This document shows, piece after piece, positions 5,528-22,306 of a stretch of 27,654 nt of DNA (positions are counted from its first letter, which is position 1; each line of letters begins with the position of its first letter). A model generated the notes under the pieces. It did no database searches, was not told the origin of the DNA, and worked only from the letters and a program-made list of their open reading frames with translations. The position numbers and the translations under genes are program-made. This DNA is from Promethearchaeota archaeon (GTDB lineage Archaea > Asgardarchaeota > Lokiarchaeia > Sigyniarchaeales > SOKP01). The stretch spans positions 1 to 27,654 of the forward strand of contig JABCSY010000053.1 of the NCBI GenBank assembly GCA_018238625.1, read 5' to 3'.

Positions 5528-5552
5528 ATTTATATCAAATGTAAATATTATT

Positions 5553-6110: not shown

Positions 6111-6169
6111 CTTCTATAACCTCATAAGTTTTCAGTTTAAATTATTCATTTGATTTTTTAAAATAGTAA

Positions 6170-6730
6170 TTATTTATTCGTCTGTTCCCATTCTTCTCTA
6201 AAAATACAAAAGATCAATTCATCGACATACTCTCCGTTGAAATATGTTTGATTTTTCAGTACTAATTCGAGTTTCATTCCAATTTTCTCAAGCATACGAC
6301 AAGCTCCTTCATTTGGCCTTAAAGCTGAAGCTGTAACCCTAACTAAGTTTAATTCTTCAAATCCGTATTTGATCATTAGTTTTGCTGCTTCTGTACCCAA
6401 ATTTTTACCCCATAATTCTTTTTCTCCTATTAAGACGCTTAAATCTGCTGCGTGATTTATATAATTAATATTATGGAATTCTACAAAACCAATAATTTTA
6501 TCAAGTTCTTTATTATAAATTTCAAAAGAAATATCTCTCTTTGGTCGCTCTTGTTGTTGCTCTAAACGCTTCTTTAGATCTTCAGGGGACACTGGAAAAA
6601 GATTTCGGGCGTATAATCTCGCTTTAGGGTCGTTCTTCCATCTAGCGTGGATCTTTACATTTTCAGAATTAATTGGGAGAAGTTCTATGCGTTCCCCCTC
6701 AATAAATCTTATTTGTGTATTTTTTTCTAT
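6170..6730 (-). CDS. GNAT N-acetyltransferase, RimJ/RimL/SpeG-like (copy 3); frame extends to a probable ATA start at 6730
   Basis: The ORF track starts at GTG 6592, but the frame is open upstream: (I/M)EKNTQIRFIEGERIELLPINSENVKIHARWKNDPKARLYARN, which aligns with the paralog N-termini. An in-frame TAA lies two codons above the ATA and GGTGAG is 6 nt upstream. This gives 186 aa, like the paralogs. Confidence 0.85.
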   Translation of the reverse strand: MEKNTQIRFIEGERIELLPINSENVKIHARWKNDPKARLYARNLFPVSPEDLKKRLEQQQERPKRDISFEIYNKELDKIIGFVEFHNINYINHAADLSVLIGEKELWGKNLGTEAAKLMIKYGFEELNLVRVTASALRPNEGACRMLEKIGMKLELVLKNQTYFNGEYVDELIFCIFREEWEQTNK

Positions 6731-6758
6731 AATTTACTCACCAATCGTTTGCTTAATA

Positions 6759-7356
6759 TTAATCGTCTTTCATTTTCCAATCTCTTTTTAAAAGCGAAAA
6801 TCTATGATTATCGTGATATTTTCCATCAATATATATTGTTTCTTTTATAATTGCTTCTTTTTCAAATCCCAATTTCTCAGCTGCGCGAAGAGATCTTTTA
6901 TTTGGGCTAAAGATTCCCGCATGAATTTTATGTAAATTCAATTCGGTAAAACCGTATTTAATCACTAGTGCACAAGCTTCACCGGCTATACCCTTTCCCC
7001 AATGTTCGGGTTCCCCGATCAATGCAAAAAGATTAGCGTTCCTACTACCCAATTGATCTCATCTAACCCCACACTACCAATTGGCCGTTTTTCTTGCTTA
7101 TGAAAAATCATAAAATTTGCAACATCCCTAATATGTCTGTCTGGTGAATGTTCGAACCTTTTTTTACATCTTCAAGAGTCTTTGGCCATATATTTCGAGA
7201 ATAATGACGAACTTTTGGATTATTAATCCATTTACAAAATAAATTTACCCATTTCGAATTTCCAGCGACTAAATCGATCCTTTCTCCTTCTATAAAAGGA
7301 AATACATCATTTTCTTCTTCCTTACCTTCTTTATCTTTTTTTTCTTCTGTCATCAT
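6759..7356 (-). pseudogene. GNAT N-acetyltransferase (copy 2) interrupted by two 1-nt deletions (pseudogene or homopolymer sequencing error)
   Basis: ORFs 7108-7356 and 6759-7052, plus the intervening frame FEHSPDRHIRDVANFMIFHKQEKRPIGSVGLDEINW, align continuously with 7389-7985. Breaks are at the T7 run 7159-7165 and the C3 run 7048-7050. Confidence 0.85.
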
Positions 7357-7388
7357 TAATCCTTCAATTATTAATTGTTAATCATCTT

Positions 7389-7985
7389 TCATTCTTTCAT
7401 TTTCCAATCTCTTTTAAACAACGCGAATTTGTGTATGTCGTGATATTGCCCGTCAACGTACATTTCTTCTTTTAAAACGCCTTCTTTTTCAAAACCTAAT
7501 TTTTCAGCTGCGCGAAGAGACCTACTGTTTGGTGTAAAAACTCCAGCAAAAATTTTATGAAAATTCAATTCAGTAAAACCGTAATTGATCATGAGATTAG
7601 AAGCTTCACCAGCTATTCCCTTCCCCCAATATTCAGGTTCTCCGATTGTTAAAAATATGTTAGCATTTCTACTAACCCAATTAATGTGATTAAATCCTAT
7701 ACTACCAATTGGCCGTTTTGCGTGCTTATGATAAACGGTAAAGACAATAAATTCCCTCATTTGTCTGTCTGGTGTGGGTTCGAACCATTTCTTTACTTCT
7801 TCGAGAGTCTTTGGCCACATATTTCGAGAATAATGACGAACTTTTGGATCGTTCATCCATTTACAAACTAAATTAGCCCATTTAGAGTTACCAGCAACTA
7901 AATCAATGGTTTCTCCTTCTATGAAAGGAAATACGTCATCTTCTTCTTCTTTCTTATCTTCTTTAACTTTTTTTTCTTCAGTCAT
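7389..7985 (-). CDS. GNAT N-acetyltransferase, RimJ/RimL/SpeG-like (copy 1), with charged N-terminal extension
   Basis: TIGEPEYWGKGIAGEA; GFTELNFHKI; NSRSLRAAEKLGFEKEG; N-terminus MTEEKKVKEDKKEEEDD. Confidence 0.93.
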   Translation of the reverse strand: MTEEKKVKEDKKEEEDDVFPFIEGETIDLVAGNSKWANLVCKWMNDPKVRHYSRNMWPKTLEEVKKWFEPTPDRQMREFIVFTVYHKHAKRPIGSIGFNHINWVSRNANIFLTIGEPEYWGKGIAGEASNLMINYGFTELNFHKIFAGVFTPNSRSLRAAEKLGFEKEGVLKEEMYVDGQYHDIHKFALFKRDWKMKE

Positions 7986-9879: not shown

Positions 9880-11439
9880 TTAATATTTTAAGTTTCTCGT
9901 GTTAACTATAGTGCTTAACATGAGCTTAAGGTAATCGTGTATTTTTTCTCTGTAATCAGAACCAATTTTTAGAAATATTATTGATACAACCTTTTCTTCT
10001 AAATCTTTGTCAATAACAAACTCTTCCATTAATTGGGACCAGTTATTGTCGTCAGAAACTCGAACTCCAACGATAATTGTTCGTTTTTTTCTAATTTTTT
10101 GAATAATTTGAATTAAAATCTCCTTCCAATTAGGATCGATGTGCTCTTTGTCTCTAGCGTCGAATATACAAAAAGCACCATCGGAATTAGAAAGGTTAAA
10201 TTTATCGTAAAGAAAACTACTTAAGATCACTCCGTTCTTATAAGTGTATAATTTTTCTTCGCTACTATCTTTTATCTTAGAAAATTCGCCTAGTTTTTCG
10301 ATATCTAATATGGTATGAAATCCAGGGTTCCAACTCATGCTATAAGTAATAAAAGTTAATTCTAATATAATCAACTCTTTTAAAGCGAAATCAATCGCTT
10401 CTATTAGATCATCCTTGATTCTATCCTTTTCTTGTCTTTTTCTTTTTACTATGTAATGATAAGCAATTAATTCAAACGCGTCTTTAACGTTATTTCCCGT
10501 AAGTGCGCTCGTTTCTATATAGGAAGAGGCATTTTCAGAAAATGATTTGGCTAAAACTTCTCCTTCTTCGGTGGATATTAATCGTTGTTCGCTCAAATCG
10601 CTTTTGTTACCAATGATCACTATGGGAATATTTTTTTCTTCGATAAGGTTAGATATTTCCTTATGCCAACTCTTTACATTTTCAAACGATTCTCTTCTAG
10701 TAAGATCAAAAACGATAAAAGCAGCTTCTGCACCCGTGTAATAAATCTTGCGAAAGCGTTTGAAATATTGTTGTGCCCCAATATCCCACAACTGAACACC
10801 AATCTCATTTCCTTCAAAATCGAAATTATGTGCTAAAATATTTAAGCCAATAGTGGCTCTATAATCGTGTGTAAATTTGCGCTCTACAAATTGACGAATC
10901 AATGATGTTTTTCCAACCTCATGATCACCAACAATTACGAATTTAAATGCATAATTACCGCATTCACTGAATTCCGATTGACATATTGATGCTTTTAACC
11001 TTTCATGTCTTTCAGCTTCATTATCAAAATCGGGAATTGCCAATTGTATTAAATCGCCCGTTTGGGCGTTCAGTATTTGAGCTGATTTCTCAGCTAGAAA
11101 GTAAGTATAAGGCGCAACCTTTTCTACTGAAGCCATACTGTTAAAGATTATACTTAATATTCTCTCTTCGTCAATAGTAACAAAAAGTAAACGGTATTCG
11201 TCTGTGTCAAACGCAGCAGTCCCAAATTTTTTGAAAGAGAATTCATTTCGGATCCTTTGTAAGAGCGGGTTTATAAGTGTAGTCAAAACAGATACAATTT
11301 CGAGATCAATATCTTTTCTTTTTTCTCCCGCAATAACGAATCCTTCGACATCAGAGACGATAATCGCTTCAACTTCTGTAAATCTTTCTAAAAAATTACT
11401 TAATATCTCGTTAAAAAGTTGATTTCTGTTAATAATCAA
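9880..11439 (-). CDS. Roadblock/LC7-like domain + Rab-like small GTPase + C-terminal degenerate GTPase-like domain (paralog A)
   Basis: N-terminal VEAIIVSDVEGFVIAG (roadblock/MglB-type); G1 GDHEVGKTS, G2 YRATIG, G3 WDIGAQ, G4 NKSD, G5 ETSAL; C-terminal SDGAFCIFDARD...IIVGVRVSD. The TTG start aligns with the paralog's ATG. Confidence 0.9.
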   Translation of the reverse strand: MIINRNQLFNEILSNFLERFTEVEAIIVSDVEGFVIAGEKRKDIDLEIVSVLTTLINPLLQRIRNEFSFKKFGTAAFDTDEYRLLFVTIDEERILSIIFNSMASVEKVAPYTYFLAEKSAQILNAQTGDLIQLAIPDFDNEAERHERLKASICQSEFSECGNYAFKFVIVGDHEVGKTSLIRQFVERKFTHDYRATIGLNILAHNFDFEGNEIGVQLWDIGAQQYFKRFRKIYYTGAEAAFIVFDLTRRESFENVKSWHKEISNLIEEKNIPIVIIGNKSDLSEQRLISTEEGEVLAKSFSENASSYIETSALTGNNVKDAFELIAYHYIVKRKRQEKDRIKDDLIEAIDFALKELIILELTFITYSMSWNPGFHTILDIEKLGEFSKIKDSSEEKLYTYKNGVILSSFLYDKFNLSNSDGAFCIFDARDKEHIDPNWKEILIQIIQKIRKKRTIIVGVRVSDDNNWSQLMEEFVIDKDLEEKVVSIIFLKIGSDYREKIHDYLKLMLSTIVNTRNLKY

Positions 11440-11608
11440 TAGAATCTACCTTCAAATATGAACAATATCAAACGGAATTTGTACTTATCATAAATATAAT
11501 ATAACTTATTTTTAAAAGTAGCTATTTCAATTTATAAAATTATAAATAAAATTTGTGTCCCAACATCCCAGAGTGATAAAATTTCAATTAGAAATAATGG
11601 AGGATATT

Positions 11609-13171
11609 TTAATTTATGATGGTGTTAAACATTACTTCAAGTTGGTCGTAGATTTCCAAGCGATACTCGAAACCAATCTTAAAAAATAAAAGAGATATCA
11701 TCCTCTTTTCTAGATATTCGTTAACATTAAATTCTTCCATAATATTTGACCAATCACTCTGCTCAGATACTCTTACACCTATTAGGGCAACTTTGTTTTC
11801 GCCAAGGTTTTTGATTATATTGACAACAACGTCTTTCCACTTTGGTTCGATATGCTTCCTATCTCGAGCGTCAAATATGACGAAAACGCCATCAGAATCT
11901 GTTACATCTAAATTATCAAAAAGAAAGTTCTTTATTAATAATCCATTGGAATATTCGTATAATCTTTTTTCTTTGTCGTCAATTACTTTCTCACACTCAC
12001 ACAATTTATTTACTTCGTTTAAGATTTGTAGCCCTGGACTCCAAAACGGACTATCAGTTACAAACGAGACAATTAATTTTCCTTTCTTATTTAAAATCGA
12101 CTTAATTTGATCCATTAAATTTTCTTCTAGCTTTTGTTCTTCTCTTTCTTTACTCTTCATTATATAATGATATGCTATCAAGCTGAACGCGTCTTCTATG
12201 TTTTCGCCTGTTAAAGCGCTGGTTTCAATATATGAGATATCTCCACCAGAATAATCCTTTGAAAGTTCATCAACTAAAGCAACACCGTTTTTAAATTTAA
12301 CGATTCGCTGATCCGACAAATCTACCTTATTTCCTACGATTGTGATTGGAATTTTCTTATTTCCTATAAATTCATCTAGCTCTTTATACCAAATTTTCAC
12401 ATTGTCGAACGATTCTCGATTACATACATCAAAAACTATAAAAGCAGCTTGTGCACCTACGTAGTAAGTCTTTCTGAAGCGTTTAAAGTATTCTTGGGCG
12501 CCTACATCCCAAAGCGATAAAGATACCTCGTTTCCGTAAAATTTAATTGAGTGAGATAAGACATTAAGCCCTAAAGTTGCCCGATAATCGAGAGTAAATC
12601 TATTTTCTACAAACCTTCTTATAATAGAAGTTTTTCCCACTGAACTATCGCCAATTATTATAAATTTAAATTTGTAAATCCCTCCGGAATCTAGGCGGAG
12701 TTGGTATATTTGTTCTTTTATTCTACTTGTACTATCAGAAGTATTAGATTCTATTTCAAAATTCGGTACATTAACTTGAATTAAATCGCCTTCGCTTGCA
12801 AATATGATTTGAGCAGTTTTTTCTGCTAGAAAATAAGCGTATGGGCTAATTTTATCAACAGAAGCTAAAACATCTAAAACTATGCTAAGAGTTACATTTT
12901 CGTCTATAGAAATAAAGAGCAATCGGTTTTTTTCGGTGTCAAAACTAGCTGATCCAAACTTTTGAAAGGCAAATTCTTCCCGCATTCTTTCTAAAAGTGG
13001 ATTTATTAATGCTGTTAATACAGATACTAATTCCATATCAGTGCTTGCTTTTTTTTGGCCAGCTATAATAAATCCTTCTCGATCTGATACGATTAGAGCT
13101 TCTACATCGTCATTAACGAGCAGAAAGTTAGTAAGAAGTTCATTAAAAAGTCGTTTTTTGTTTAAAGACAT
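11609..13171 (-). CDS. Roadblock/LC7-like domain + Rab-like small GTPase + C-terminal degenerate GTPase-like domain (paralog B)
   Basis: VEALIVSDREGFIIAG; GDSSVGKTS, YRATLG, WDVGAQ, NKVD, ETSAL; C-terminal SDGVFVIFDARD...ALIGVRVSE. Colinear with 9880-11439. Confidence 0.9.
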   Translation of the reverse strand: MSLNKKRLFNELLTNFLLVNDDVEALIVSDREGFIIAGQKKASTDMELVSVLTALINPLLERMREEFAFQKFGSASFDTEKNRLLFISIDENVTLSIVLDVLASVDKISPYAYFLAEKTAQIIFASEGDLIQVNVPNFEIESNTSDSTSRIKEQIYQLRLDSGGIYKFKFIIIGDSSVGKTSIIRRFVENRFTLDYRATLGLNVLSHSIKFYGNEVSLSLWDVGAQEYFKRFRKTYYVGAQAAFIVFDVCNRESFDNVKIWYKELDEFIGNKKIPITIVGNKVDLSDQRIVKFKNGVALVDELSKDYSGGDISYIETSALTGENIEDAFSLIAYHYIMKSKEREEQKLEENLMDQIKSILNKKGKLIVSFVTDSPFWSPGLQILNEVNKLCECEKVIDDKEKRLYEYSNGLLIKNFLFDNLDVTDSDGVFVIFDARDRKHIEPKWKDVVVNIIKNLGENKVALIGVRVSEQSDWSNIMEEFNVNEYLEKRMISLLFFKIGFEYRLEIYDQLEVMFNTIIN

Positions 13172-13282
13172 GATGGGTTTATAATACGATTATATTAGAT
13201 TGAATTATTAAATAAAAACCTAGGTTTAAAAGTAATAATTTTATAATTTATTAAATAGTTTTCTGAATAATAGTTTTCTGAT

Positions 13283-13858
13283 ATGGCTACTTGTATTATT
13301 TGTCATCTGGATATTATTGAAGGTGTAGATTCTTTCCAAGAGTGCCCTAACGGACATCCTACACATACGGATTGCTTGAAAGAGTGGCTACTTCACGCTT
13401 CAAACTGTCCTTTATGTAGAGAACCGTACTCGATTCACGTTATTGAAGGCTTTAAAGATTTTATTCAGCAAAGAGAGCATGAAAAACACGAAGCTTTAGA
13501 AAGTGAACTGAAGCAAGAAAAAGTCAAACAAATGGGGAAAATTGCTGAAAAAATTATATTTCTGAAATTTGTTGAATCTATTGAGGTATTAATGGTTGCA
13601 AAAGAATACGAGTACGCTTTATCAAGGTTAGATTTACACGATAACGATACCACTTCAAATCAAAAAAACCAAAACCTTTTGTTTTTAAAGGGAAAGATTA
13701 ATTACTTGAGAGGTCGTTACGATATGGCAATTAGCTTATTAACTAAATTAGTAAAAGAAAAATACGACTATCCAGAAGGGTTTTTATTCCTTGGAAAATC
13801 CTATGAAGCCTTAGGTTTAAAAGATCAAGCCAAATGGGCGTTTGATAGAGTTAATTAG
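13283..13858 (+). CDS. RING-H2 finger + helical linker + TPR protein (putative E3 ubiquitin ligase)
   Basis: C-x2-C-x13-C-x3-H-x2-H-x2-C-x10-C-x2-C (CIIC...CPNGHPTHTDCLKEWL...CPLC) with the conserved Trp. C-terminal TPR-like LFLKGKINYLRGRYDMAI and FLFLGKSYEALGLKDQA. Confidence 0.88.
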   Translation: MATCIICHLDIIEGVDSFQECPNGHPTHTDCLKEWLLHASNCPLCREPYSIHVIEGFKDFIQQREHEKHEALESELKQEKVKQMGKIAEKIIFLKFVESIEVLMVAKEYEYALSRLDLHDNDTTSNQKNQNLLFLKGKINYLRGRYDMAISLLTKLVKEKYDYPEGFLFLGKSYEALGLKDQAKWAFDRVN

Positions 13859-13881: not shown

Positions 13882-15282
13882 ATGAAAACTTTTTGTTTAA
13901 CTATTGCCGGTTCAGACCCTACATGTGGCGCGGGAATTCAAGCAGATATTAGAACGTTTGATAGGTGTGGAGTACACCCTTTTTCTGTAATAACGGCTAT
14001 TACTTATCAAAGTGCTACGGAATTTTATGGATATCAATCTCTTTCAGACGATTTAAATAAACAGCTAGATGCTATTTTTACTTCTTATCCTATTAAGTAT
14101 GTTAAAATAGGGATGATTCCAGATGTCAAAGCGTTAGACATTATCGTAGATATAGTTAGAAAACACGATTTAATCGCTATTTTGGATCCTGTTTCGATCT
14201 CGAGCGCAGGTGGAAGACTCTCAAGCGAGGGATTCGAATTAGAAATAGAAAGAGGTTTGTTTCCGCACGTAAAAGTCCTTACACCAAACATTAATGAAGC
14301 CGGTTTTTATGCGAACCGAGATTTATTAAATAAAACTACAGAAAATATTGCTGAACTCAAGGAAGCAGCAATAATATTGGTAAAAAAGTTATATTCTGAT
14401 GAGCAGACATTGGATGCGGAGAAAGCAGTTGTTATTAAAAGTGCGGGAACTAAACAAGGAGAGATTTTCGATCTCGTATGTATCAGTAAAGGAATAGGTT
14501 CCAATGAAAATTATGAATTTACTTTATATCAAAAGTCAAAACTATTATTTAATGGAAATGTCCACGGAACGGGATGCGTTTTTTCTTCTGCTATAGCTGC
14601 TTTTCTTGCTAAAGGAAATCCCTTAGCTATGGCTATTGAAAAAGCAGAAAACTTTTTTGACGCTAAATTTCAGAAGTTTGTTGAATTACCCGATAAAGGT
14701 AAAGCAATAGATCTAACTATTTCAGAAGAAAGAGTGGAAGTTATAAATCAAATTAAGGAAATCTACAGTTTTATCTCTAGGTTGAAAAAGTTTAGCAAAT
14801 TAATTCCTGAAGTTAGAATGAATATATCAGGGGCCTTACCTAACGCTACTATAAAAGAGGATATCGCGGGTATTGAAGGTAGAATTACAATTGTTAATGG
14901 TTATCCCCAAGCTTCCGGAGAAATAAAGTTTGGAGTCTCAAATCATACCGCTCGATTAATTCTCTCGGCGAAAAAGTTCGATAATTCAATTAATTACGTA
15001 ATAAATCTTAAGTATGACCCAAATTGGATAGATTTAATTCAGCAAAACTCTGATTTAGAATTACAAGAGATTATTAGAGAAGATCAGCCAGAAAAGATTA
15101 AAAAACAAGAATTTTCAACTATGCAATGGTTAATTAAAGAAAGTATGGCTAATAAAGGTAAAATACCAGATATCATTTGGGATAAAGGAGCGATCGGTAA
15201 GGAGCCTATTATCAGACTTTTTGGTAAGAATTCCATTGATGTGATTAAGAAATTACAAAAAATCGTAGATTTGATTACTTAA
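13882..15282 (+). CDS. thiDN: Bifunctional HMP/HMP-P kinase (ThiD) - thiamine-phosphate synthase (ThiN) fusion
   Basis: ThiD: LTIAGSDPTCGAGIQAD, VKIGM, LTPNINEA, HGTGCVFSSAIAA. ThiN: LIPEVRMNI, GIEGRI, FGVSNHTAR, PDIIWDKGAIGKEP. Confidence 0.92.
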   Translation: MKTFCLTIAGSDPTCGAGIQADIRTFDRCGVHPFSVITAITYQSATEFYGYQSLSDDLNKQLDAIFTSYPIKYVKIGMIPDVKALDIIVDIVRKHDLIAILDPVSISSAGGRLSSEGFELEIERGLFPHVKVLTPNINEAGFYANRDLLNKTTENIAELKEAAIILVKKLYSDEQTLDAEKAVVIKSAGTKQGEIFDLVCISKGIGSNENYEFTLYQKSKLLFNGNVHGTGCVFSSAIAAFLAKGNPLAMAIEKAENFFDAKFQKFVELPDKGKAIDLTISEERVEVINQIKEIYSFISRLKKFSKLIPEVRMNISGALPNATIKEDIAGIEGRITIVNGYPQASGEIKFGVSNHTARLILSAKKFDNSINYVINLKYDPNWIDLIQQNSDLELQEIIREDQPEKIKKQEFSTMQWLIKESMANKGKIPDIIWDKGAIGKEPIIRLFGKNSIDVIKKLQKIVDLIT

Positions 15283-15435: not shown

Positions 15436-15474
15436 TTTAAAATTAAATTTGAATTTGAATTCAATGTGAATAAA

Positions 15475-17154
15475 ATGATGATACAGCAAAAAAAATCGAA
15501 ATTTTTTTTATTAACAATAAGTCTATCAGTACTTTTATTATTTGTAGGAGTAGGCGTTAATATCAATAGTTATGTCTTGGATAATAAATCATTAGACGAA
15601 GATGTTTTAACTCAACCTAAAGAATCGTGGACATATACTACCCGAATTCTTAGGCCAAATGAGGACGTATCGAATAATGGTTTTCAAAGTAGTCCAATAT
15701 TTAATAAAATTAATGAAGTTGTAACATACCCTAGTTCCGGTGGAGATAGTAGTTATATTATAGGCGATGTTACAACAGATAGTTGTGAAGTTAAAATGAG
15801 TACAACTTACCAGCTTGAAGGACAGAGTTTTACAAGCATTAAAATTTATGCTCGGGGAAGAAAAGGAGGTACTCCTGGAGATACAACTTTGAATGTAAAA
15901 TTTGACTGGAGATTAGAAGGGGGAAGCTTCTCAACACCCAAATCAGTTAATTTTGATGAAGATAGTTTCCACTGGCTTAGTACTATTTCATGGGATAATT
16001 TAGATTTATCTAAAAATGAATTAGATCATTTACAAATTAGAATACGCATTGGAGGAATTGATGAGATTGATAAAGAACAACATATATCGGTTGTATACGC
16101 TGAAATTACCGTTAAAAGCAACGAAGATCCGACTGTCAATGTAATCTCTCCAAACGGAGGCGAAATCGTTCAAGACACTGCTTTGATAAATTGGAGCTAT
16201 TCTGATCCTGAAGGTCAAACTCTTACTTATGAATTATCTTATAGCATAATCCCATCTGGGACGTTTCACACTATTGTTTCTGGGTTAGTAAATGTGAACA
16301 CCTACGAATGGGACTTAAGTGGATTTACTGAAAGGTGTGATAGTGTTAGAATTATGGTAGAAGCTTGGGATGGAAACGGGGGTTATGATTACGATCATAG
16401 CGATGATTATTTCGAAATATTTGTTAACCACGATCCCATCGTAAATCTAACCTCTCCAAATGGAGGTGAGGTTCTACAAGAGAGCTCGTTGATAACATGG
16501 GATTGCTCTGATACTGATGGAGATACATTAACATTTAATATATCTTATGATATTGCGGGTGCGGGATGGACGCCTATAGTTTCAGGATTAGTAGATGAAA
16601 CATCCTACGAATGGGATTTAAGCGGATTTCCTCAAAGATCTGATCAAGTTTTAGTTAAAATTGAAGTAGACGACGGATATGAGGGTTTTAATGAAGATGT
16701 TAGCGATAATTATTTCGAAATTTTTTTTAACCACGATCCTACAATAACCTTAACCTCTCCAAACGGAGGTGAAACTCTAAAAGGAAACTCAACGATAGCA
16801 TGGAATTGCTCTGATTTTGATGGGGATACGTTAACATTCAACATTTCGTACAATATCGCAGGGACTATATGGCAACCTATAGCATCTGGATTAGTGAATG
16901 TAAGTTCTTACGAATGGGATCTAGGTGGATTTGCTTTTATTTACGATCAAGTTAGAGTAAAAGTACAAGTACGCGATGAATATAATGGATACGCAGAGGA
17001 TGTTAGCGACAATCCATTTGTAATTAATGCGGCAATAGAAGAATTAGAAACGATACCTTCCTTTAACATATTCATTGTTGGAGCTAGTGGATGTATCGCG
17101 GGTATTTTTCTTTGTGCTAAGGGAACAAAAAAAAACGTAAGAAATTCACTTTAG
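15475..17154 (+). CDS. Cell-surface protein: signal peptide, beta-sandwich head, three ~101-aa SPNGGE Ig-like repeats, Loki-CTERM-like anchor
   Basis: Hydrophobic N-terminus; SPNGGE at 16147, 16453, 16756; C-terminal IPSF + hydrophobic stretch + basic tail. ATG 15475 is preferred over GTG 15466 because it aligns with the paralog's start (CAATG + 8 nt). Confidence 0.85.
   Translation: MMIQQKKSKFFLLTISLSVLLLFVGVGVNINSYVLDNKSLDEDVLTQPKESWTYTTRILRPNEDVSNNGFQSSPIFNKINEVVTYPSSGGDSSYIIGDVTTDSCEVKMSTTYQLEGQSFTSIKIYARGRKGGTPGDTTLNVKFDWRLEGGSFSTPKSVNFDEDSFHWLSTISWDNLDLSKNELDHLQIRIRIGGIDEIDKEQHISVVYAEITVKSNEDPTVNVISPNGGEIVQDTALINWSYSDPEGQTLTYELSYSIIPSGTFHTIVSGLVNVNTYEWDLSGFTERCDSVRIMVEAWDGNGGYDYDHSDDYFEIFVNHDPIVNLTSPNGGEVLQESSLITWDCSDTDGDTLTFNISYDIAGAGWTPIVSGLVDETSYEWDLSGFPQRSDQVLVKIEVDDGYEGFNEDVSDNYFEIFFNHDPTITLTSPNGGETLKGNSTIAWNCSDFDGDTLTFNISYNIAGTIWQPIASGLVNVSSYEWDLGGFAFIYDQVRVKVQVRDEYNGYAEDVSDNPFVINAAIEELETIPSFNIFIVGASGCIAGIFLCAKGTKKNVRNSL
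16120..17030 (+). repeat. Three intragenic ~303-bp tandem repeats (N.DP.V.L.SPNGGE...W..SD.DG.TLT...YEWDL.GF...D.SD.YF.I)
   Basis: Periods of 306 and 303 nt between SPNGGE codons; two further copies at about 18012-18615 in the next gene. Boundaries approximate. Confidence 0.9.
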
Positions 17155-17273
17155 CCTAAATATTTTTTATTTCTTTTTCATTTTAAAGAGGAAATCTGTA
17201 GAAAGCATTACTCTTTTAAATTATAACTAATAGATTTAACCTAAATTGCCTTGTGAAAATTCATCATGGCATT

Positions 17274-17328
17274 GAATTACCAGATCGATTTAAATAAGAC
17301 TTTTAAATATACAAAATGTATAGTTAAC
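17274..17328 (+). promoter_or_regulatory. Conserved upstream element copy 2
   Basis: GAATTACCAGATCGATTTAAATAAGACTTTTAAATATACAAAATGTATAGTTAAC; contains the palindrome TATACA-aaa-TGTATA. Confidence 0.7.
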
Positions 17329-17363
17329 AGAAATACTAATTATTTGAATTCAATGGGATCGAA

Positions 17364-19115
17364 TTGAAGTCACGACAAAAAAAGGCAATATTCGTTTTAT
17401 TAGCTGTAAGCTTTGGTTTTTTTTTTGGTTTAACATTTTTTATTAAAGGTGACTCAAACACTAGTAATCTCGTTTCGGAAAAAGAGAATTCAATTCAACC
17501 TGAAAATTCGTACACATATTCCACTCAAATTATTAGACCAGACGATGACCTAACAAATAGTGGTTTTACACTTGTACCAGGTGGTGGTTATTTATATACG
17601 AAAATAAATGATAATGTAAGTTCACCTGCGGCTGGAGGAGATAGTGAATATATTATTGGTGATCATGATCTAGATGATTGCGAGGTCGAGATGAGTTCTA
17701 TAACTTTAAATCCAGGTCAAGTTGTCACAGGAATAGAAATATATGCAAGGGGGCAAGTTGGAGGTGGTCCTGGAGAAGTTACTATTCGTACAGGTTTTAG
17801 ATGGAGAATTGGGACAGGAACCTATTCCTCATCTAACTCAGTTCAATTTGATGAAAGTAGTTTCTACTGGCTTAGTGCAAGTCCATGGCCGGATTTAGAA
17901 TTATCACAATCTGAATTAAATGATTTAAGGATTGAAATAAGTATTACAGGAATTGTAGGTGTAAAAACACAAGAAATTTCAGTAATGTATGTGGAACTTA
18001 CTATTAGAAGTAATGAAAACCCTAATGTTAATTTAACTTCTCCGAATGGAGGTGAAATTCTACAAGAAACTGCGAATATAACTTGGAATTATTCTGATCC
18101 TGAAGGTGATACCATAACATTTAACTTATTATATGACATTGCGGGGGCAGGGTGGACTCCAATAGTTTCTGGATTAGTAAATGAGACTTCTTACGAATGG
18201 GATCTGACGGGTTTTACTCAAAGATACGACCAAGTTAGGGTAAAAATAGAGGCGGACGATGGAAATGGGGGATACGATGAGGATATTAGCGATGATTATT
18301 TCGATATATTTGTTAACCATGATCCCGTAGTAAACTTAATATCTCCAAATGGGGGTGAGATTCTACAAGGTAATACATCAATAACATGGAATTTTTTTGA
18401 TGCTGACGATGATCTTTTATCATTTAATATTTCGTACAATATAGCTGGAACAGGATGGACCCTTATTGTTTCTGGATTAGTAAATAAGAGTTCATATCAA
18501 TGGGACTTAAGTAATTTCACCCAAAGATACGATCAAGTTTTAATCAAATTAGAAGTAAATGACGGGTATAATGGATATAGCGAGGATATTAGCGGAGACT
18601 ATTTTGTAATAAATATAATAGAGCAAAAGGGAGAGTTTGATCCTATTATTCTGATTTTGATCTTTGGAGCAAGCGTAGGAATTTCAGGTATTTTTATTGG
18701 AAATAATATTGTAAAAAGAAAAAGGAAGAAAAGCATTAAAAACAGAGATTCATCAATTCCATATAGGGTTAAACAAGTAGATAGTGTTGGTAGTAATCAT
18801 AAAAAGATTATAGTAGAAGCTGATCTTTTAATTAGAAGAACTAGCAATGGTAATAGTAAAGATTTAATTTCTAATCTGTTTTCTAAAAATTCTAACCTTC
18901 TAGATGAAGTAGTAGGGAAAGAGGGCTATGAAGTAGTAAAAATATTAGGAAAATTCCGCATTACAACATTATCTGATGATTTTTGGGATAAAGTAGAGCA
19001 ATTTGAGTGGGAAAATAATGAGAAAGAAGAATTCATAAAAGATATGCTTGGATTGCCCCCTGATTGTCGTGAACAGTTTATTGATGATATGTTAAGGCAA
19101 TCAAAGAGGCGATAA
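17364..19115 (+). CDS. Single-pass surface protein paralogous to the upstream gene: same head domain, two SPNGGE repeats, TM helix and ~130-aa cytoplasmic tail
   Basis: SPNGGE at 18039 and 18342; TM PIILILIFGASVGISGIFIG followed by KRKRKK; acidic helical end TTLSDDFWDKVEQFEW...EFIKDMLGLPPDCREQFIDDML. TTG start. Confidence 0.85.
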   Translation: MKSRQKKAIFVLLAVSFGFFFGLTFFIKGDSNTSNLVSEKENSIQPENSYTYSTQIIRPDDDLTNSGFTLVPGGGYLYTKINDNVSSPAAGGDSEYIIGDHDLDDCEVEMSSITLNPGQVVTGIEIYARGQVGGGPGEVTIRTGFRWRIGTGTYSSSNSVQFDESSFYWLSASPWPDLELSQSELNDLRIEISITGIVGVKTQEISVMYVELTIRSNENPNVNLTSPNGGEILQETANITWNYSDPEGDTITFNLLYDIAGAGWTPIVSGLVNETSYEWDLTGFTQRYDQVRVKIEADDGNGGYDEDISDDYFDIFVNHDPVVNLISPNGGEILQGNTSITWNFFDADDDLLSFNISYNIAGTGWTLIVSGLVNKSSYQWDLSNFTQRYDQVLIKLEVNDGYNGYSEDISGDYFVINIIEQKGEFDPIILILIFGASVGISGIFIGNNIVKRKRKKSIKNRDSSIPYRVKQVDSVGSNHKKIIVEADLLIRRTSNGNSKDLISNLFSKNSNLLDEVVGKEGYEVVKILGKFRITTLSDDFWDKVEQFEWENNEKEEFIKDMLGLPPDCREQFIDDMLRQSKRR

Positions 19116-19119
19116 GAGG

Positions 19120-19773
19120 TTGAACTCAATAGCGTCTACTGAATTCGAAAACGAAGAAGAAATCGTATTTAATGCGGTTCAAGACTATTTAAACGAGAAT
19201 AAAATAGTTGAAAAAAACAATTTAGTTAATTATATCAAATCTTATTTCTCTAAAATTGCTATCAACATCAATGAAGAGGGAATTGTTAAAAATTTGGAAT
19301 CTTTAATTGAAAAGAAGAGAATTGTTGAAGGTTCTAAGTTAACTAGGAATACAGTATTACAAAATGAAAAAAGAAAGAAAATTTATGATTGTATTGTCAA
19401 CAATCCCGGAATGTACTTTAATAAAATATTAAAAAACATGAATCTCAGCAACCACGTTGTCTATTGGCACGTAAACATCCTATTAAAATTTAATTTAATA
19501 AAAACAACTGAAATTCAGAACCGCGACATATATTTTAATTCTGATTTTGACGTTAAAGAAGCTAAAACGCAATACATTTTGAGAAAAAAAGGTAGTAAAA
19601 AAATACTCGAATATCTTAAAGAAAACACAATTGGTATAAATAAAAACCAACTAGCTTCAGAATTAAAAATGCACGCTAAGACAATTAAAAAATACGTCGA
19701 CCTTCTTGAAGAATATGGATTTATTGAAAAGAAAAAGTTTTCTCCTAAAGAAATTTTATATTTTTTAAAATGA
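19120..19773 (+). CDS. Winged helix-turn-helix transcriptional regulator with tandem wHTH domains
   Basis: NEKRKKIYDCIVNNPGMYFNKILKNMNLSNHVVYWHVNILLKFNLI and KKILEYLKEN..GINKNQLASELKMHAKTIKKYVDLLEEYGFI. Starts 4 nt after the previous stop. Confidence 0.88.
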   Translation: MNSIASTEFENEEEIVFNAVQDYLNENKIVEKNNLVNYIKSYFSKIAININEEGIVKNLESLIEKKRIVEGSKLTRNTVLQNEKRKKIYDCIVNNPGMYFNKILKNMNLSNHVVYWHVNILLKFNLIKTTEIQNRDIYFNSDFDVKEAKTQYILRKKGSKKILEYLKENTIGINKNQLASELKMHAKTIKKYVDLLEEYGFIEKKKFSPKEILYFLK

Positions 19774-19806: not shown

Positions 19807-21126
19807 TTATAATATCTTTTTAGATGCTTTCTTATCTAAGGCATCTTTTAAAATCTTAATCGCGCAAAATTCGCCGCACATACTGCATACATCATCGTCA
19901 TCGTCAACATTTCCATTTCTAAAATGAATCTCGCGAGATAATTCTGGATCGATCGATTGTTTTATCATTCCTTCCCAATCTAGATTTTTACGGGCTATAT
20001 CCATTTTGTAATCCCAATCTGATGCCCTTTTACCATATTTCGCAATATTTACGGCATGTGCTGCGATTTTCGAAGCAATAACCCCTCTTTTTACTTCTTC
20101 CTTATTGGGTAGTGCCAAATGCTCGGAGGGAGTAACGTAACAGAGATAATCTGCTCCGGCCATACCCGCCATTACACCTCCTATCGCACTTACGATGTGG
20201 TCGTAACCCGGAGCTATATCAGTTACTAATGGTCCTAAAACATAAAAAGGTGCGTTATTGCATAATGATTTCATAATTTTTATGTTGCGCTCTATTTCAT
20301 TAGCAGGAATGTGTCCAGGCCCTTCCACCATTACTTGGACATTCTGTGACCAAGCGCGTTTTACTAATTTTGATATCTCAACTAACTCTTGAATTTGGGC
20401 GTAATCTGTGGAATCAAATATACTACCCGGCCTCATCCCATCTCCAAGTGAGAGCGTGAAATCGTGTTCTTTCGCCATTTCTAATAAGTAGTCGTAATTA
20501 CTATTAAAAGGGTTTTCTAAATCGTTCTCAAGTATCCATGCGGCTAAAAAAGTTCCTCCGCGAGAGACCACTCCCATAGTTCTTGGATGGTCTTTTAGGT
20601 AGTTTACTATCTCTTTCGTAACTCCAACATGAATTGTAAAAAAGTCCACGCCTTCTTTAGCCTGTTCTTCTACTACGTTAAAGAGGTCATCTTCGTCAAA
20701 GTTTATAATAGCTCCTTTTTTTTCCAACGCTCTTAACGCGGATTGGTAAATAGGAACCGTTCCTAATGGGACTTTAACTTCTTTTAAAATTTGTTTTCGA
20801 ATGTTTTTCACGTCGTCCTCGGTTATTCCAGTGCTTAAATCCATGATGGTATCTGCCCCGTATTTTACAGCGATCTTGGCTTTTTCTAATTCTTCGTTAA
20901 TATCACATACTCGTTTGCTGGAGCCTAAGTTAGCGTTAACTTTTACTAGCAAACCTTCACCTATGCCAATAGGTTCGATATCGCGATTATTGGATTTTGG
21001 AACGATAATACGGCCTTTTGCGATTCCTTTTCGAAGGAATTCTACATCTACTTGTTCTTTTTTCGCAACTAATTCCATTTCTTTGGTGATTTTACCATCT
21101 CGAGCGATTTTCATTAATGTGGGCAA
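19807..21126 (-). CDS. thiC: Phosphomethylpyrimidine synthase ThiC
   Basis: KVNANLGSS, GADTIMDLSTG, GTVPIYQ, VSRGG, SLGDGMRPG, MVEGPGH, APGYDHI, CYVTPSEHL, C-terminal CSMCGEFC Fe-S motif. Confidence 0.97.
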   Translation of the reverse strand: MPTLMKIARDGKITKEMELVAKKEQVDVEFLRKGIAKGRIIVPKSNNRDIEPIGIGEGLLVKVNANLGSSKRVCDINEELEKAKIAVKYGADTIMDLSTGITEDDVKNIRKQILKEVKVPLGTVPIYQSALRALEKKGAIINFDEDDLFNVVEEQAKEGVDFFTIHVGVTKEIVNYLKDHPRTMGVVSRGGTFLAAWILENDLENPFNSNYDYLLEMAKEHDFTLSLGDGMRPGSIFDSTDYAQIQELVEISKLVKRAWSQNVQVMVEGPGHIPANEIERNIKIMKSLCNNAPFYVLGPLVTDIAPGYDHIVSAIGGVMAGMAGADYLCYVTPSEHLALPNKEEVKRGVIASKIAAHAVNIAKYGKRASDWDYKMDIARKNLDWEGMIKQSIDPELSREIHFRNGNVDDDDDVCSMCGEFCAIKILKDALDKKASKKIL

Positions 21127-21315: not shown

Positions 21316-21654
21316 TTATACTTCTGGTGCAGTCATACCTAAGATTTTATAAGCTTCTGCTAAGTCCAAAAAGATTTCTACTTTATATTTAAGCCCATCA
21401 ATTTTAGAAGCCATGAATAAGTTTTGTTGAGTTGACCGTTTTAGGGCTTCTTTTTCCATGCCTTTCATTATCTGACCAATACCATAAGTTAAAAGAGTTC
21501 CATCTTCGTCTGAACCGACAGCAATGGCGAGTGTTTTTTCAATTGAATTATCCGGAGGGTTATCTTTTAGAAAATCTGTATACGCTTTTGCTATTTTATT
21601 TGACTGATCAGCAGGAAACCAAACTCGACTTACTAAGAGTGTTATTTTAATCAC
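21316..21654 (-). CDS. Small hypothetical alpha/beta protein
   Basis: 112-aa ORF with normal composition. The real start may be ATA at 21645, with the GTG being part of a GATGTGA SD-like sequence. Confidence 0.75.
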   Translation of the reverse strand: MIKITLLVSRVWFPADQSNKIAKAYTDFLKDNPPDNSIEKTLAIAVGSDEDGTLLTYGIGQIMKGMEKEALKRSTQQNLFMASKIDGLKYKVEIFLDLAEAYKILGMTAPEV

Positions 21655-21838: not shown

Positions 21839-22306
21839 TTAGTATCCCATTTTTAGTTGCTTTAAGAGCTCAACTAAAGATTCGGTTAATTTATATGTTT
21901 TTAAATCTTTAAATGGCACGAATTTAGCGTCTAACGCGTCGGAATCGGGCATAGGTGGTTGATTTAGATCGCCCTCAGTTTGTTCTACGAAATAATTAAT
22001 CAAAACGTAATGGTATTCGATCTTCCCGGTATCGTCGTACATTATTTTATCTATTATTCCAGCTAATTTTGTAACCTTCACCTTAAAGCCGGTTTCTTCA
22101 AAACCCTCTCTTTCAGCAGCAGATTGTGTTCTTTCACCGATGTCTAAGTGTCCTCCGGGAATAGACCAATATCCCGCATCAGGATTGAATTTTCGTTTAA
22201 CTATCAATAACGAATTATTTCGAATCAGTAAAACGCCAACTCCTATTAATGGAACGATAGGATAACGTCTTAAATCGTAGGGGGTAAAATCTTTTTTATC
22301 TACCAT
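21839..22306 (-). CDS. Nudix hydrolase (ADP-ribose pyrophosphatase-like)
   Basis: Nudix box GGHLDIGERTQSAAEREGFEETGF; WSIPGG; YHYVLINY; SDALDAKF. Confidence 0.92.
   Translation of the reverse strand: MVDKKDFTPYDLRRYPIVPLIGVGVLLIRNNSLLIVKRKFNPDAGYWSIPGGHLDIGERTQSAAEREGFEETGFKVKVTKLAGIIDKIMYDDTGKIEYHYVLINYFVEQTEGDLNQPPMPDSDALDAKFVPFKDLKTYKLTESLVELLKQLKMGY

What the first reader, a model, noticed from the sequence alone, without database searches (positions are those of the whole stretch)
13172..13858. RING-H2/TPR putative E3 ligase head-to-head with the GTPase pair
Seen: a complete C3H2C3 RING with the conserved Trp, a charged helical linker and TPR repeats. It starts 111 bp from the start of GTPase paralog B on the opposite strand. 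Known: RING-H2 domains recruit E2 enzymes, TPRs bind substrates, Asgard archaea encode ubiquitin systems, and eukaryotic Rag/Rab GTPases are regulated by RING ligases. Inference: a shared divergent promoter could co-regulate a GTPase switch and a ligase that targets it. No ubiquitin, E1 or E2 gene is in this window.
Basis: partly seen in the sequence, partly recalled or inferred. Interest (0 to 1): 0.7.

Follow-up and report, generated by a model that had tools for sequence, protein, structure and literature searches.

The report
RING-TPR ligase gene in thiamine cluster
A small Lokiarchaeal protein with a ubiquitin-ligase-type RING finger and a TPR binding domain is real, but across relatives its gene stays with vitamin B1 (thiamine) genes rather than with the neighbouring GTPases.

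Summary
ORF 13283-13858 (+, 191 aa) has a RING-H2 finger (Pfam zf-RING_2 above cut-off; all eight ligands invariant in 32 homologs), one long charged helix and about three TPR-like repeats (AF2 pLDDT 91.7). It starts 111 bp from GTPase B. The genome also encodes ubiquitin-like, E1, E2 and JAB genes.

The proposed GTPase link is weak. The head-to-head pair occurs in every family-f1 locus with upstream flank, but so does the whole block IDH-GTPaseA-GTPaseB-RINGTPR-ThiDN-ThiC-NUDIX. Outside f1 the 520-aa GTPases are never adjacent.

The gene tracks thiamine genes instead:
- In f1 it lies a median 26 bp upstream of thiDN, which suggests an operon.
- In all 13 family-f2 loci (seven genera) it lies beside ThiDN, ThiN, Thi4, ThiW or a thiBPQ-like ABC transporter, one of them riboswitch-controlled.
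- Five transporter-type genomes show no ThiN, and four of five no ThiC, yet keep the gene.

Best reading (0.42): a lineage-specific RING E3 tied to thiamine homeostasis. E3 activity, substrates and co-transcription are inferred, not shown.

The parts
13172..13282 (.). 111-bp A+T-rich spacer between the start of GTPase B (-) and the start of the RING-TPR gene (+). It holds two separate conserved TATA-like blocks: one near 13184-13202 facing GTPase B, and TTTTATAATTTATTAAATAG at 13239-13258 facing the RING-TPR gene.
   Evidence: Sequence. In an alignment of 21 upstream regions from close relatives, both blocks are conserved in at least 90% of rows. The 20-mer occurs once in the window. Promoter function is inferred.
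13283..13858 (+). RING-TPR gene, 191 aa plus stop. It is single-copy and specific to this lineage.
   Evidence: ORF. 296 homologs, named where named as Lokiarchaeota/Promethearchaeota 'hypothetical' or 'RING finger domain-containing protein'. AF2 mean pLDDT 91.7.
13292..13420 (+). RING-H2 finger, residues 4-46: C4, C7, C21, H25, H28, C31, C42, C45, with I6, W35 and P43 on the presumed E2-binding face.
   Evidence: Pfam zf-RING_2 32.1 bits against cut-off 27.3. Ligands, W35 and P43 invariant, I6 at least 90% in 32 homologs. Matches to solved RING-H2 E3 domains.
13454..13597 (+). Single long charged helix, residues 58-105. It is a spacer or a possible dimerisation element, and its C-terminal end packs as the first TPR-like helix.
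   Evidence: AF2 secondary structure H58-105. The spacer/dimer role is inferred.
13598..13855 (+). TPR-like domain, residues 106-191: helices 109-120, 126-142, 146-159, 164-176 and 180-188. The family signature is LGLxDKAKWAYxR at the C-terminus.
   Evidence: AF2. Foldseek matches to three-repeat TPR modules. Profile hits to MamA and Cdc27. Conserved columns. Peptide patterns used.
13882..15282 (+). thiDN (HMP-P kinase + ThiN thiamine-phosphate synthase), 23 bp downstream on the same strand. Probably co-transcribed.
   Evidence: Pfam Phos_pyr_kin 171.9 bits and ThiN 165.6 bits. NCBIfam. In relatives the gap has a median of 26 bp and is at most 60 bp in 50 of 56 loci. Co-transcription is inferred.
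19807..21126 (-). thiC (HMP-P synthase). In close relatives it directly follows thiDN; here it is separated by an insertion at 15466-19773.
   Evidence: Pfam ThiC_Rad_SAM 620.5 bits. Present downstream in 56 of 59 related loci that have at least 3.5 kb of flank.
21839..22306 (-). NUDIX hydrolase gene at the far end of the thiamine cluster.
   Evidence: Pfam NUDIX 71 bits. Present in 46 of 59 related loci with flank and next to thiC in f2 loci L047 and L048. A thiamine-related role is inferred.
11609..13171 (-). GTPase B (520 aa: weak Roadblock hit + Ras-family GTPase + about 180-aa C-terminal region). It is the divergent neighbour; no specific link to the RING-TPR gene is supported.
   Evidence: Pfam Ras 150.3 bits, Gtr1_RagA 23.9 bits against cut-off 22, Robl_LC7 E 0.0093. 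Synteny analysis.
9880..11439 (-). GTPase A (519 aa), a paralog of GTPase B (52% identity, 51%).

Best explanation
The gene encodes a single-chain RING-H2 ubiquitin-type E3 ligase restricted to Lokiarchaeia.

Proposed mechanism:
- The N-terminal RING-H2 would recruit a charged E2 from the genome's own E1/E2/ubiquitin-like system, through the conserved Ile6/Trp35/Pro43 face.
- A 48-residue helix spaces, and possibly dimerises, the protein.
- A three-repeat TPR module binds the target.

Its conserved genomic partner is the thiamine (vitamin B1) gene set, not the GTPases. In family f1 it is the first gene of a probable RINGTPR-thiDN operon at the edge of a thiDN-thiC-NUDIX cluster. In family f2 it stays beside whichever thiamine acquisition genes the genome has.

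I therefore propose that it acts on thiamine homeostasis. It could mark thiamine enzymes (ThiC, Thi4, ThiDN) or thiamine transporters for turnover or down-regulation.

Shown: the domain architecture, the conservation, the presence of E1/E2/Ub-like genes and the gene-neighbourhood pattern.

Inferred: zinc binding, E2 binding, ligase activity, co-transcription, and any thiamine-pathway substrate.
For: Domains:
- zf-RING_2 is above its cut-off.
- Eight ligands plus W35 and P43 are invariant and I6 is at least 90% conserved in 32 homologs.
- The profile matches solved RING-H2 E3s and TPR proteins.
- The AF2 model is confident, pLDDT 91.7, and its TPR fold matches solved TPR modules.

Ubiquitin system in the genome:
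- Contig C50 carries Ub-like, E1, E2 (with HPN motif and a Cys) and JAB genes in a row.
- That E2 is 71-94% identical across the order.

Precedent: passages of bioRxiv 10.1101/2023.07.25.550441 report an active Helarchaeial E1/E2/RING E3 cascade in vitro.

Thiamine link in f1:
- thiDN lies 23 bp downstream in the window.
- In relatives the gap has a median of 26 bp and is at most 60 bp in 50 of 56 loci.
- Where thiDN is replaced, the neighbour is a ThiN-only gene plus a convergent ThiD in 12 loci (a 13th, L144, has ThiN only), or a convergent ThiD alone in 8 loci.
- ThiC follows in 56 of 59 loci with flank.

Thiamine link in f2 (13 of 13 loci, seven genera):
- A thiB/thiP/thiQ-like ABC transporter is the neighbour in 8 loci. 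Its binding protein scores 174.6 bits on TIGR01254 against a cut-off of 93.4.
- One of these transporters sits behind a TPP riboswitch scoring 68.9 bits against 54.3.
- The other neighbours are ThiDN+ThiC; Thi4+ThiDN+ThiC+NUDIX; ThiW+ThiN+ThiC; or ThiW+ThiDN in one co-directional row.
- The neighbour on the other side varies: hydrolase, MFS transporter, proteasome subunit, or tRNA with a small Ras.

Retention without biosynthesis: five transporter-type genomes (89-93% complete) show ThiN in 0 of 5 and ThiC in 1 of 5, yet keep the RING-TPR gene.

No other known regulator found: the own genome has no TPP riboswitch and only one ThiN domain, so no ThiR-like paralog.
Against: - There is no experimental or expression evidence.
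- The basic residue after the last Cys (R46, the 'linchpin' in my recollection of RING E3s) is not conserved in the family.
- The third zinc ligand is offset by two residues relative to the closest solved RING-H2 domains.
- The gene is not in the ubiquitin operon.
- The Ub-like protein of that operon ends ...STAGYF, not in an obvious Gly-Gly.
- The thiamine adjacency could be inheritance from one ancestral thiamine super-locus in which this gene was a passenger. The loci compared are related, not independent.
- In f2 the transporter is convergent with the gene, so it is not co-transcribed with it.
- The two most distant homolog loci show no thiamine gene nearby: f3 L052, and f4 L054 at 24-27% identity on a contig of only 5.3 kb.
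- No fused RING-TPR/thiamine-enzyme protein was found (which the tool itself rates as weak evidence).
Confidence: 0.42

Rival explanations
1. General-purpose E3. The protein is a RING E3, for example a CHIP-like quality-control ligase that uses its TPR to bind chaperones or many clients. Its position beside thiamine genes is inherited synteny with no functional meaning.
For: - The domain evidence is the same as for the best explanation.
- Among natural proteins, the TPR fold's best matches include chaperone-binding TPR modules: STUB1, Sgt2 and RPAP3.
- The whole f1 block is syntenic, so adjacency there carries little weight.
- The f3 and f4 homolog loci lack thiamine genes.
- A proteasome subunit gene lies directly upstream in L148.
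Against: - Across seven f2 genera the thiamine side is always a thiamine gene, though a different one each time, while the other side varies.
- The spacing to thiDN is tight and length-conserved at about 26 bp.
- The gene is retained next to the transporter in genomes where ThiN and mostly ThiC were not found.
Confidence: 0.22
2. Thiamine-linked, but not a ligase. The RING-like zinc module and the TPR act as a non-catalytic adaptor, sensor or assembly factor for thiamine enzymes or transporters, without ubiquitin transfer.
For: - The thiamine neighbourhood evidence applies.
- The linchpin position is variable.
- The third-ligand spacing is unusual.
- The gene lies outside the ubiquitin operon.
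- No known thiamine regulator, riboswitch or ThiR-like ThiN paralog, was found in the own genome.
Against: - The residues at the canonical E2-contact positions (I6, W35, P43; positions recalled) are invariant or nearly so.
- The closest solved relatives of the finger are all active RING-H2 E3 ligases.
- The genome has a conserved E2.
Confidence: 0.16
3. The ligase and the Rag-like GTPase pair share a divergent promoter, and the ligase regulates the GTPases.
For: - The head-to-head arrangement holds in 22 of 22 same-genus loci with flank and in 79 of 79 f1 loci with flank.
- The spacer is strongly conserved among close relatives.
- A small Ras GTPase lies upstream in 2 of 15 non-f1 loci.
Against: - The entire block of about 10 kb is syntenic in f1.
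- The spacer holds two separate TATA-like blocks rather than one shared element.
- Spacer length varies from 99 to 882 bp across f1.
- f2 keeps the RING-TPR gene but shows only about 340-aa forms of the GTPase, none adjacent.
- In the f3 and f4 genomes that have both genes, they lie on different contigs.
- Ras-family genes are very numerous in these genomes: 43-91 first-look candidates per genome.
Confidence: 0.1

Closest known systems
Small RING E3 ligases of archaeal ubiquitin systems (Caldiarchaeum subterraneum operon; Helarchaeial ESCRT/ubiquitin cluster)
   Same: Both are archaeal RING-type fingers in genomes that encode eukaryote-like E1, E2 and ubiquitin. Such a cascade is reported active in vitro (passages of bioRxiv 10.1101/2023.07.25.550441; PMC5654768 seen only as a search listing and abstract start).
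   Different: This gene is not in the ubiquitin or ESCRT cluster. It carries a long helix and a TPR domain, sits in a thiamine cluster, and is confined to the Lokiarchaeial families f1-f4. I did not compare it directly with those proteins' sequences.
CHIP/STUB1 (TPR - helical dimerisation region - U-box E3)
   Same: Both are single-chain E3-type architectures that join a three-repeat TPR module and a long helix to an E2-recruiting cross-brace domain. A STUB1 TPR structure is among the Foldseek matches (9r1p, E 1.8e-3).
   Different: The domain order is inverted. The finger is a zinc-binding RING-H2, not a U-box. Binding of a chaperone EEVD tail, and dimerisation, were not tested. The CHIP architecture is recalled, not taken from a call.
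Eukaryotic RING-H2 E3 domains of the HRD1/synoviolin, RLIM, RNF165/Arkadia, EL5 type
   Same: These are the best sequence matches of the finger. They share the C3H2C3 pattern, the Trp after the sixth ligand and the CPxC ending.
   Different: The third ligand is shifted (C-x3-H instead of C-x-H). There are no transmembrane or other eukaryotic accessory domains. Identity is limited to the finger.
Known controllers of thiamine genes: TPP riboswitch, archaeal ThiR, and yeast Rsp5-Art2 control of thiamine transporters (the last two recalled from memory)
   Same: The gene co-localises with the same gene set that riboswitches and ThiR control: thiC, thi4, thiD, thiN, thiW and thiBPQ. If it is an E3 acting on transporters, the logic would resemble ubiquitin-dependent down-regulation of nutrient transporters in yeast.
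   Different: It is a protein with no ThiN or DNA-binding domain, so it is not a ThiR. It belongs to no RNA family. Its ligase family is unrelated to the HECT-type Rsp5. ThiR is mentioned only in passages of 10.1101/2025.09.23.678117.

Membership tests
RING-H2 finger (Pfam zf-RING_2, PF13639) | Score above the curated family cut-off | tested here: met
   32.1 bits against 27.3, E 1.4e-7, residues 3-46. On the DNA it scores 35 bits in the own-genome scan.
RING-H2 finger (Pfam zf-RING_2, PF13639) | Eight zinc ligands in C3H2C3 order with cross-brace spacing | tested here: met
   C4-x2-C7-x13-C21-x3-H25-x2-H28-x2-C31-x10-C42-x2-C45, all invariant in 32 homologs. Caveat: C21 lies two residues upstream of the canonical third Cys, where N23 aligns. 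Metal binding is not testable here.
RING-type E3 ubiquitin ligase | Conserved hydrophobic E2-contact residues: Ile after the first Cys, Trp in the central helix, Pro in the final CPxC (positions recalled from solved RING-E2 complexes) | tested here: met
   I6 at least 90% conserved; W35 and P43 invariant. The basic 'linchpin' after the last Cys (R46) is present in the window protein but variable in the family.
RING-type E3 ubiquitin ligase | Cognate ubiquitin-like protein, E1 and E2 encoded in the same genome | tested here: met
   UQ_con hits at 3 places, ubiquitin family at 2 places over its cut-off, ThiF/E1 at 6 places, JAB at 6 places. Contig C50 carries Ub-like, E1, E2 and JAB in a row.
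RING-type E3 ubiquitin ligase | E2-dependent ubiquitin transfer to itself or to a substrate | not testable with these tools
   This needs an in vitro ubiquitylation assay.
TPR repeat proteins | Tandem 34-residue helix-turn-helix repeats forming a right-handed solenoid | tested here: met
   Single-sequence Pfam TPR hits are all below their cut-offs. The family profile hits MamA at 1.8e-12 and Cdc27 at 2.5e-11. The AF2 model aligns to three-repeat TPR modules over 91-102 residues, rmsd about 2-2.7 A. f2 homologs pass TPR_11 or TPR_1 cut-offs.
CHIP/STUB1-type co-chaperone E3 | U-box (no zinc ligands) at the C-terminus, after an N-terminal TPR | tested here: not met
   The finger is an N-terminal zinc-ligand RING-H2 and the TPR is C-terminal. 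It works like CHIP at most by analogy.
Archaeal ThiR thiamine regulator (definition recalled) | ThiN-like ligand domain fused to a DNA-binding domain | tested here: not met
   The protein has no ThiN or HTH hit. The genome's only ThiN hit is ThiDN.
Member of a thiamine gene cluster (by genomic context) | Adjacency to thiamine genes kept across lineages with rearranged neighbourhoods | tested here: met
   Met in all f1 loci that have downstream flank and in 13 of 13 f2 loci in seven genera with at least five architectures. Not met in 2 of 2 f3/f4 loci.
Co-regulated divergent gene pair with the 520-aa GTPases | Head-to-head arrangement kept beyond background synteny | tested here: not met
   It is kept only where the whole block is syntenic, in f1. 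It is absent from 15 of 15 non-f1 loci.

The most novel reading that the evidence does not exclude
Lokiarchaeia use a dedicated ubiquitin-type E3 as the post-translational controller of vitamin B1 homeostasis. The RING-TPR protein is made from the thiamine operon itself. It would tag spent or surplus thiamine enzymes (ThiC, Thi4, ThiDN) or thiamine and precursor transporters (ThiBPQ-like, ThiW) for removal. In family f1 genomes this would fill the regulatory role that TPP riboswitches or ThiR play elsewhere. It would be a pathway-specific, eukaryote-style use of ubiquitylation that predates eukaryotes.
Probability: 0.25. Interest if true: 0.75.

Novelty: new variant of a known kind. Interest (0 to 1): 0.5.

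Why it matters
Asgard ubiquitin systems have so far been linked to ESCRT sorting and to the ubiquitin operon itself. In the papers I could search I found no natural substrate or pathway assignment for any of the free-standing Asgard RING proteins.

Here a single-copy RING-TPR gene is present in 117 of 134 f1 genomes and 13 of 14 f2 genomes. It stays with thiamine biosynthesis, salvage or uptake genes through several rearrangements. That gives a concrete, testable pathway hypothesis for an archaeal E3.

It also proposes a candidate for the unknown thiamine control in genomes where neither a TPP riboswitch nor a ThiR-like gene was found.

Some f2 genomes are closed single contigs. If cultured strains carry the gene, the hypothesis can be tested directly.

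The result also corrects an attractive but unsupported story, a ligase that targets Rag-like GTPases.

Tried and rejected
- Complex prediction of the C50 E2 (alignment A2) with RING residues 1-60 (alignment A1): no verdict, score 0.00 against a mark of 0.32, controls not folded. This is neither for nor against binding.
- Public sequencing runs: 20 DNA holders in 11 studies, no RNA holder listed. Co-transcription could not be examined, and read laying was not used.
- Search for longer, fused relatives of the protein: none at E <= 1e-5 among 561 candidates. The tool rates this as weak evidence, and it also missed the 570-699-aa f2 forms seen.
- Protein Atlas: only the protein's own cluster (95 members, Promethearchaeota) scored above 0.9.
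- TPP riboswitch: none in the window, none in the own genome, and none at E <= 0.1 in L042-L045 and L050.
- A shared operator between the RING-TPR promoter and other window genes: the conserved 20-mer occurs once only, and 13 of 100 shuffles give at least one match. Nothing was seen upstream of thiC by eye.
- Phyletic co-loss. Five f1 genomes without a full-length homolog were examined. ThiC was not found in 3 and sits at a contig edge in 2. In two of the three genomes searched the GTPases are missing as well, and in G076 the hits are other, longer paralogs in an unrelated context. This fits block-level absence or assembly gaps and does not discriminate between models.
- A thiamine/ThiR literature search by word start returned mostly irrelevant papers.
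- Considered and rejected: a PHD finger, because the ligand order is C3H2C3 and not C4HC3; and ThiR, because there is no ThiN or HTH domain.
Full report
**1. What is in the window**

The finding spans 13172-13858. The ORF itself is 13283..13858 on the + strand, 191 aa.

Pfam places a RING finger at residues 3-46: zf-RING_2, 32.1 bits against a cut-off of 27.3. The ligand pattern is C4-x2-C7-x13-C21-x3-H25-x2-H28-x2-C31-x10-C42-x2-C45, with W35 four residues after C31.

Every single-sequence TPR hit is below its Pfam cut-off, E 0.0015-0.043. I therefore tested the TPR claim in other ways.

**2. Family, conservation and fold**

Distribution:
- A same-order sample of 41 genomes gave full-length homologs in 23 of 24 same-genus genomes at 49-92% identity. 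The 24th has only a 32-residue piece at a contig end.
- All 11 genomes of a second family, f2, have a homolog at 32-40% identity.
- A protein-database search found 296 relatives. Where named, they are Lokiarchaeota/Promethearchaeota 'hypothetical' or 'RING finger domain-containing' proteins.

Conservation. An alignment of 32 homologs (A1, down to 24% identity) has as invariant columns C4, C7, H8, C21, N23, H25, H28, C31, L32, W35, C42, P43, C45 and Y49. I6 is at least 90% conserved.

Matches of the A1 profile to solved structures:
- TPR proteins: MamA 1.8e-12, Cdc27 2.5e-11.
- RING-H2 E3 domains: HRD1 1.6e-8, RNF165 1.5e-7, plus EL5, Arkadia and AMFR.

Fold. AF2 on A1 gives mean pLDDT 91.7 and pTM 0.62. 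It predicts a small beta/alpha finger (residues 1-50), one helix from 58 to 105, and five further helices from 109 to 188. Foldseek against the PDB matches only the C-terminal part, to three-repeat TPR modules: designed TPRs, STUB1, MamA, RPAP3 and Sgt2. E-values are about 1e-3, and only 2 hits reach E <= 0.001.

A nuance on the finger. Pairwise alignments to synoviolin and RLIM put the invariant N23 where those fingers have their third Cys, with C21 two residues upstream. The spacing C-x3-H is at the edge of the RING consensus as I recall it.

**3. Is a ubiquitin system available?**

Yes. The own genome (4.29 Mb, 201 contigs, 97.9% complete, 7.6% contamination) has:
- three UQ_con places;
- two ubiquitin-family places over the cut-off;
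- six ThiF/E1 places;
- six JAB places;
- five zf-RING_2 places, three of them over the cut-off.

Contig C50 carries Ub-like, E1, E2 and JAB genes in a row. The E2 has an HPN motif and a following Cys. It is 71-94% identical in 27 relatives, with H82, P83, N84 and C99 invariant. The RING-TPR gene is not in that operon.

Passages of a 2023 preprint report that a Helarchaeial E1/E2/RING E3 cascade is active in vitro.

**4. The GTPase link**

Within family f1 the arrangement is universal, but so is everything around it:
- In the same genus, GTPase B is divergent and adjacent in 22 of 22 loci with upstream flank, and thiDN follows in 23 of 23.
- In 80 further loci from named MAGs (47-91% identity; some are probably the same species as the G handles), a GTPase of this type is the divergent upstream neighbour in 79 of 79 with flank.
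- The same loci also keep IDH, GTPase A, thiDN, thiC and NUDIX in order. The pairing is therefore part of block-wide synteny.

The spacer:
- Its length varies from 99 to 882 bp, median 176.
- Among 21 close relatives it is well conserved and shows two separate TATA-like blocks, one facing each gene.

Outside f1:
- None of 15 loci has a 520-aa GTPase next door.
- f2 genomes show only forms of about 340 aa.
- Full-length three-domain orthologs exist in f3 and f4. In the two genomes that also have a full-length RING-TPR homolog (G026, G031), the two genes lie on different contigs.
- A small Ras GTPase of 193-226 aa lies upstream on the same strand in 2 of 15 loci, L046 and L147. Ras-family genes are very abundant in these genomes.

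**5. What the gene does track with**

In the window:
- thiDN starts 23 bp after the RING-TPR stop codon.
- thiC (620.5 bits) lies at 19807-21126 and a NUDIX gene at 21839-22306.
- They are separated from thiDN by an insertion of two Ig-domain genes and an HTH gene.

In related f1 loci:
- The gap to a full-length thiDN has a median of 26 bp and is at most 60 bp in 50 of 56 loci.
- In 12 loci the downstream gene is a ThiN-only gene (170.8 bits) followed by a convergent ThiD (335 bits). A 13th locus, L144, has the ThiN-only gene but no ThiD hit.
- In 8 loci the neighbour is a convergent ThiD alone (326 bits).
- Three loci lack downstream flank.
- thiC is present in 56 of 59 loci with at least 3.5 kb of flank, and NUDIX in 46 of 59.

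In family f2, all 13 loci (seven genera) have thiamine genes alongside:
- Eight loci (g2, g8, g9) have a convergent ABC transporter. Its binding protein passes the thiamine-type model TIGR01254 (174.6 bits against 93.4), and its permease is most like ThiP.
- In L147 a TPP riboswitch (68.9 bits against 54.3) sits just upstream of that transporter.
- L046 has RINGTPR->ThiDN<-ThiC.
- L047 has NUDIX, ThiC, ThiDN, Thi4 (233.9 bits) and RINGTPR.
- L048 and L051 have a ThiW fusion (TIGR02359, 112 bits against 84.35), an unknown 233-aa gene and RINGTPR. L048 also has ThiN, ThiC and NUDIX.
- L148 has proteasome subunit->RINGTPR->ThiW->232-aa gene->ThiDN, all on one strand.

The neighbour on the non-thiamine side differs between genera.

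Five transporter-type genomes (89-93% complete) show ThiN in 0 of 5 and ThiC in 1 of 5. They nevertheless keep the RING-TPR gene beside the transporter.

The f3 locus (L052) and the f4 locus (L054, 24-27% identity, a 5.3-kb contig) show no thiamine gene nearby.

**6. Range of the family**

- In the class, the A1 profile finds the family in f1 117 of 134, f2 13 of 14, f3 1 of 1, f4 1 of 4 and f5-f7 0 of 7 genomes, almost always as a single copy.
- In a sample of 301 genomes of the phylum, full-length matches occur only in f1 (63 of 68) and f2 (7 of 7), plus one contig-end match in an f27 genome. Seven f10 genomes match only the TPR half and one f19 genome only the RING half.

**7. Interpretation**

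The most economical reading is a lineage-specific RING-H2 E3. Its TPR module selects targets, and its function is tied to thiamine homeostasis. It is probably co-transcribed with thiDN in f1.

Support for E3 activity rests on four points:
- the complete and invariant ligand set;
- conservation of the residues at the canonical E2-contact positions (positions recalled);
- the genome's conserved E2;
- the in vitro precedent in another Asgard class.

The thiamine link rests only on gene neighbourhood. That evidence is persistent but phylogenetically non-independent. A passenger gene sitting inside an ancestral thiamine super-locus would give a similar picture.

The own genome has no TPP riboswitch and only one ThiN domain. 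The usual thiamine regulators were therefore not found, which leaves room for a protein-level controller.

I found no paper linking a RING finger to thiamine genes in Asgard archaea. The searches were made, and I saw listings and abstract starts only. Passages of the Thi4 preprint do not mention RING as a protein domain, ubiquitin or Asgard.

**8. What failed or stayed open**

- The E2-RING co-fold gave no verdict.
- No RNA data set holds the locus.
- No fused forms were found.
- Supplements of papers were not available.

**Verdict**

The E3 identity is plausible. The GTPase story is not supported. The gene belongs, by context, to the thiamine gene cluster.

Noticed in passing
window 9880-13171 (-): Two tandem 519/520-aa paralogous GTPases (52% identical). 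Each has a weak Roadblock/LC7 hit, a Ras-family domain and an unassigned C-terminal region of about 180 aa. GTPase B also passes the Gtr1_RagA cut-off (23.9 against 22). Further paralogs occur elsewhere in relatives. Family f2 shows only forms of about 340 aa.
   Followed up: partly
window 15466-19773 (+): Two Ig-like (Big_7) proteins with N-terminal hydrophobic segments, plus a double-HTH protein, are inserted between thiDN and thiC in this genome. In close relatives such as L067 and L068, thiC follows thiDN directly.
   Followed up: partly
L147 13472-13574 (-): A TPP riboswitch (68.9 bits, gathering score 54.3) lies upstream of a thiB-like binding-protein gene in a Lokiarchaeial (f2) genome. 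None was found in the window's own genome.
   Followed up: partly
L048 6169-6870 (+); L051 1118-1819 (+); L148 8346-9044 (+): A conserved soluble protein of about 232 aa has no Pfam family and carries a P-loop-like G-E-S-x-x-x-K-T motif. It always lies directly after ThiW (thiazole-precursor transporter). It could be an unrecognised kinase of the thiamine salvage route.
   Followed up: partly
L043 6901-9000 (-); L044 5987-7699 (+); L050 4212-6239 (+): In genus g2 the RING-TPR homolog is the C-terminal third of a 570-699-aa open frame. In L043 and L050 that frame has a second RING-like stretch near its N-terminus, and no family is assigned to the middle.
   Followed up: partly
L148 6208-6867 (+): A proteasome subunit gene (169 bits) lies directly upstream of, and co-directional with, the RING-TPR gene in one f2 genus.
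   Followed up: no
window 21316-21654 (-): A 112-aa ORF with no Pfam family lies between thiC and the NUDIX gene. It recurs at that position in many f1 loci at 50-88% identity.
   Followed up: no
window 4967-7985 (-): Four GNAT acetyltransferase ORFs lie in tandem (Acetyltransf_3). Similar arrays occur upstream in many related loci.
   Followed up: no
G000 C185:23904-24359 and C91:7688-8224: Two nearly identical E2-like genes. The C91 copy is interrupted by an in-frame TAG and a short insertion. This is a possible pseudogene, strain variant or bin contamination; the genome's contamination estimate is 7.6%.
   Followed up: no
L080, L083, L091, L092, L098, L104, L110, L117, L118, L127, L131, L141, L142: These records are titled Nanopelagicaceae bacterium, or Hermod-, Odin-, Hod- or Thorarchaeota. 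They carry the same syntenic block (where their flanks reach) at 48-66% identity to the window protein. Their titles probably do not reflect the contig's true lineage.
   Followed up: no
window 22508-27652 (+) and 2933-4240 (-): A very large Peptidase_C25 (gingipain-like) protein with a CARDB domain runs off the window end. A DDE transposase gene lies upstream.
   Followed up: no
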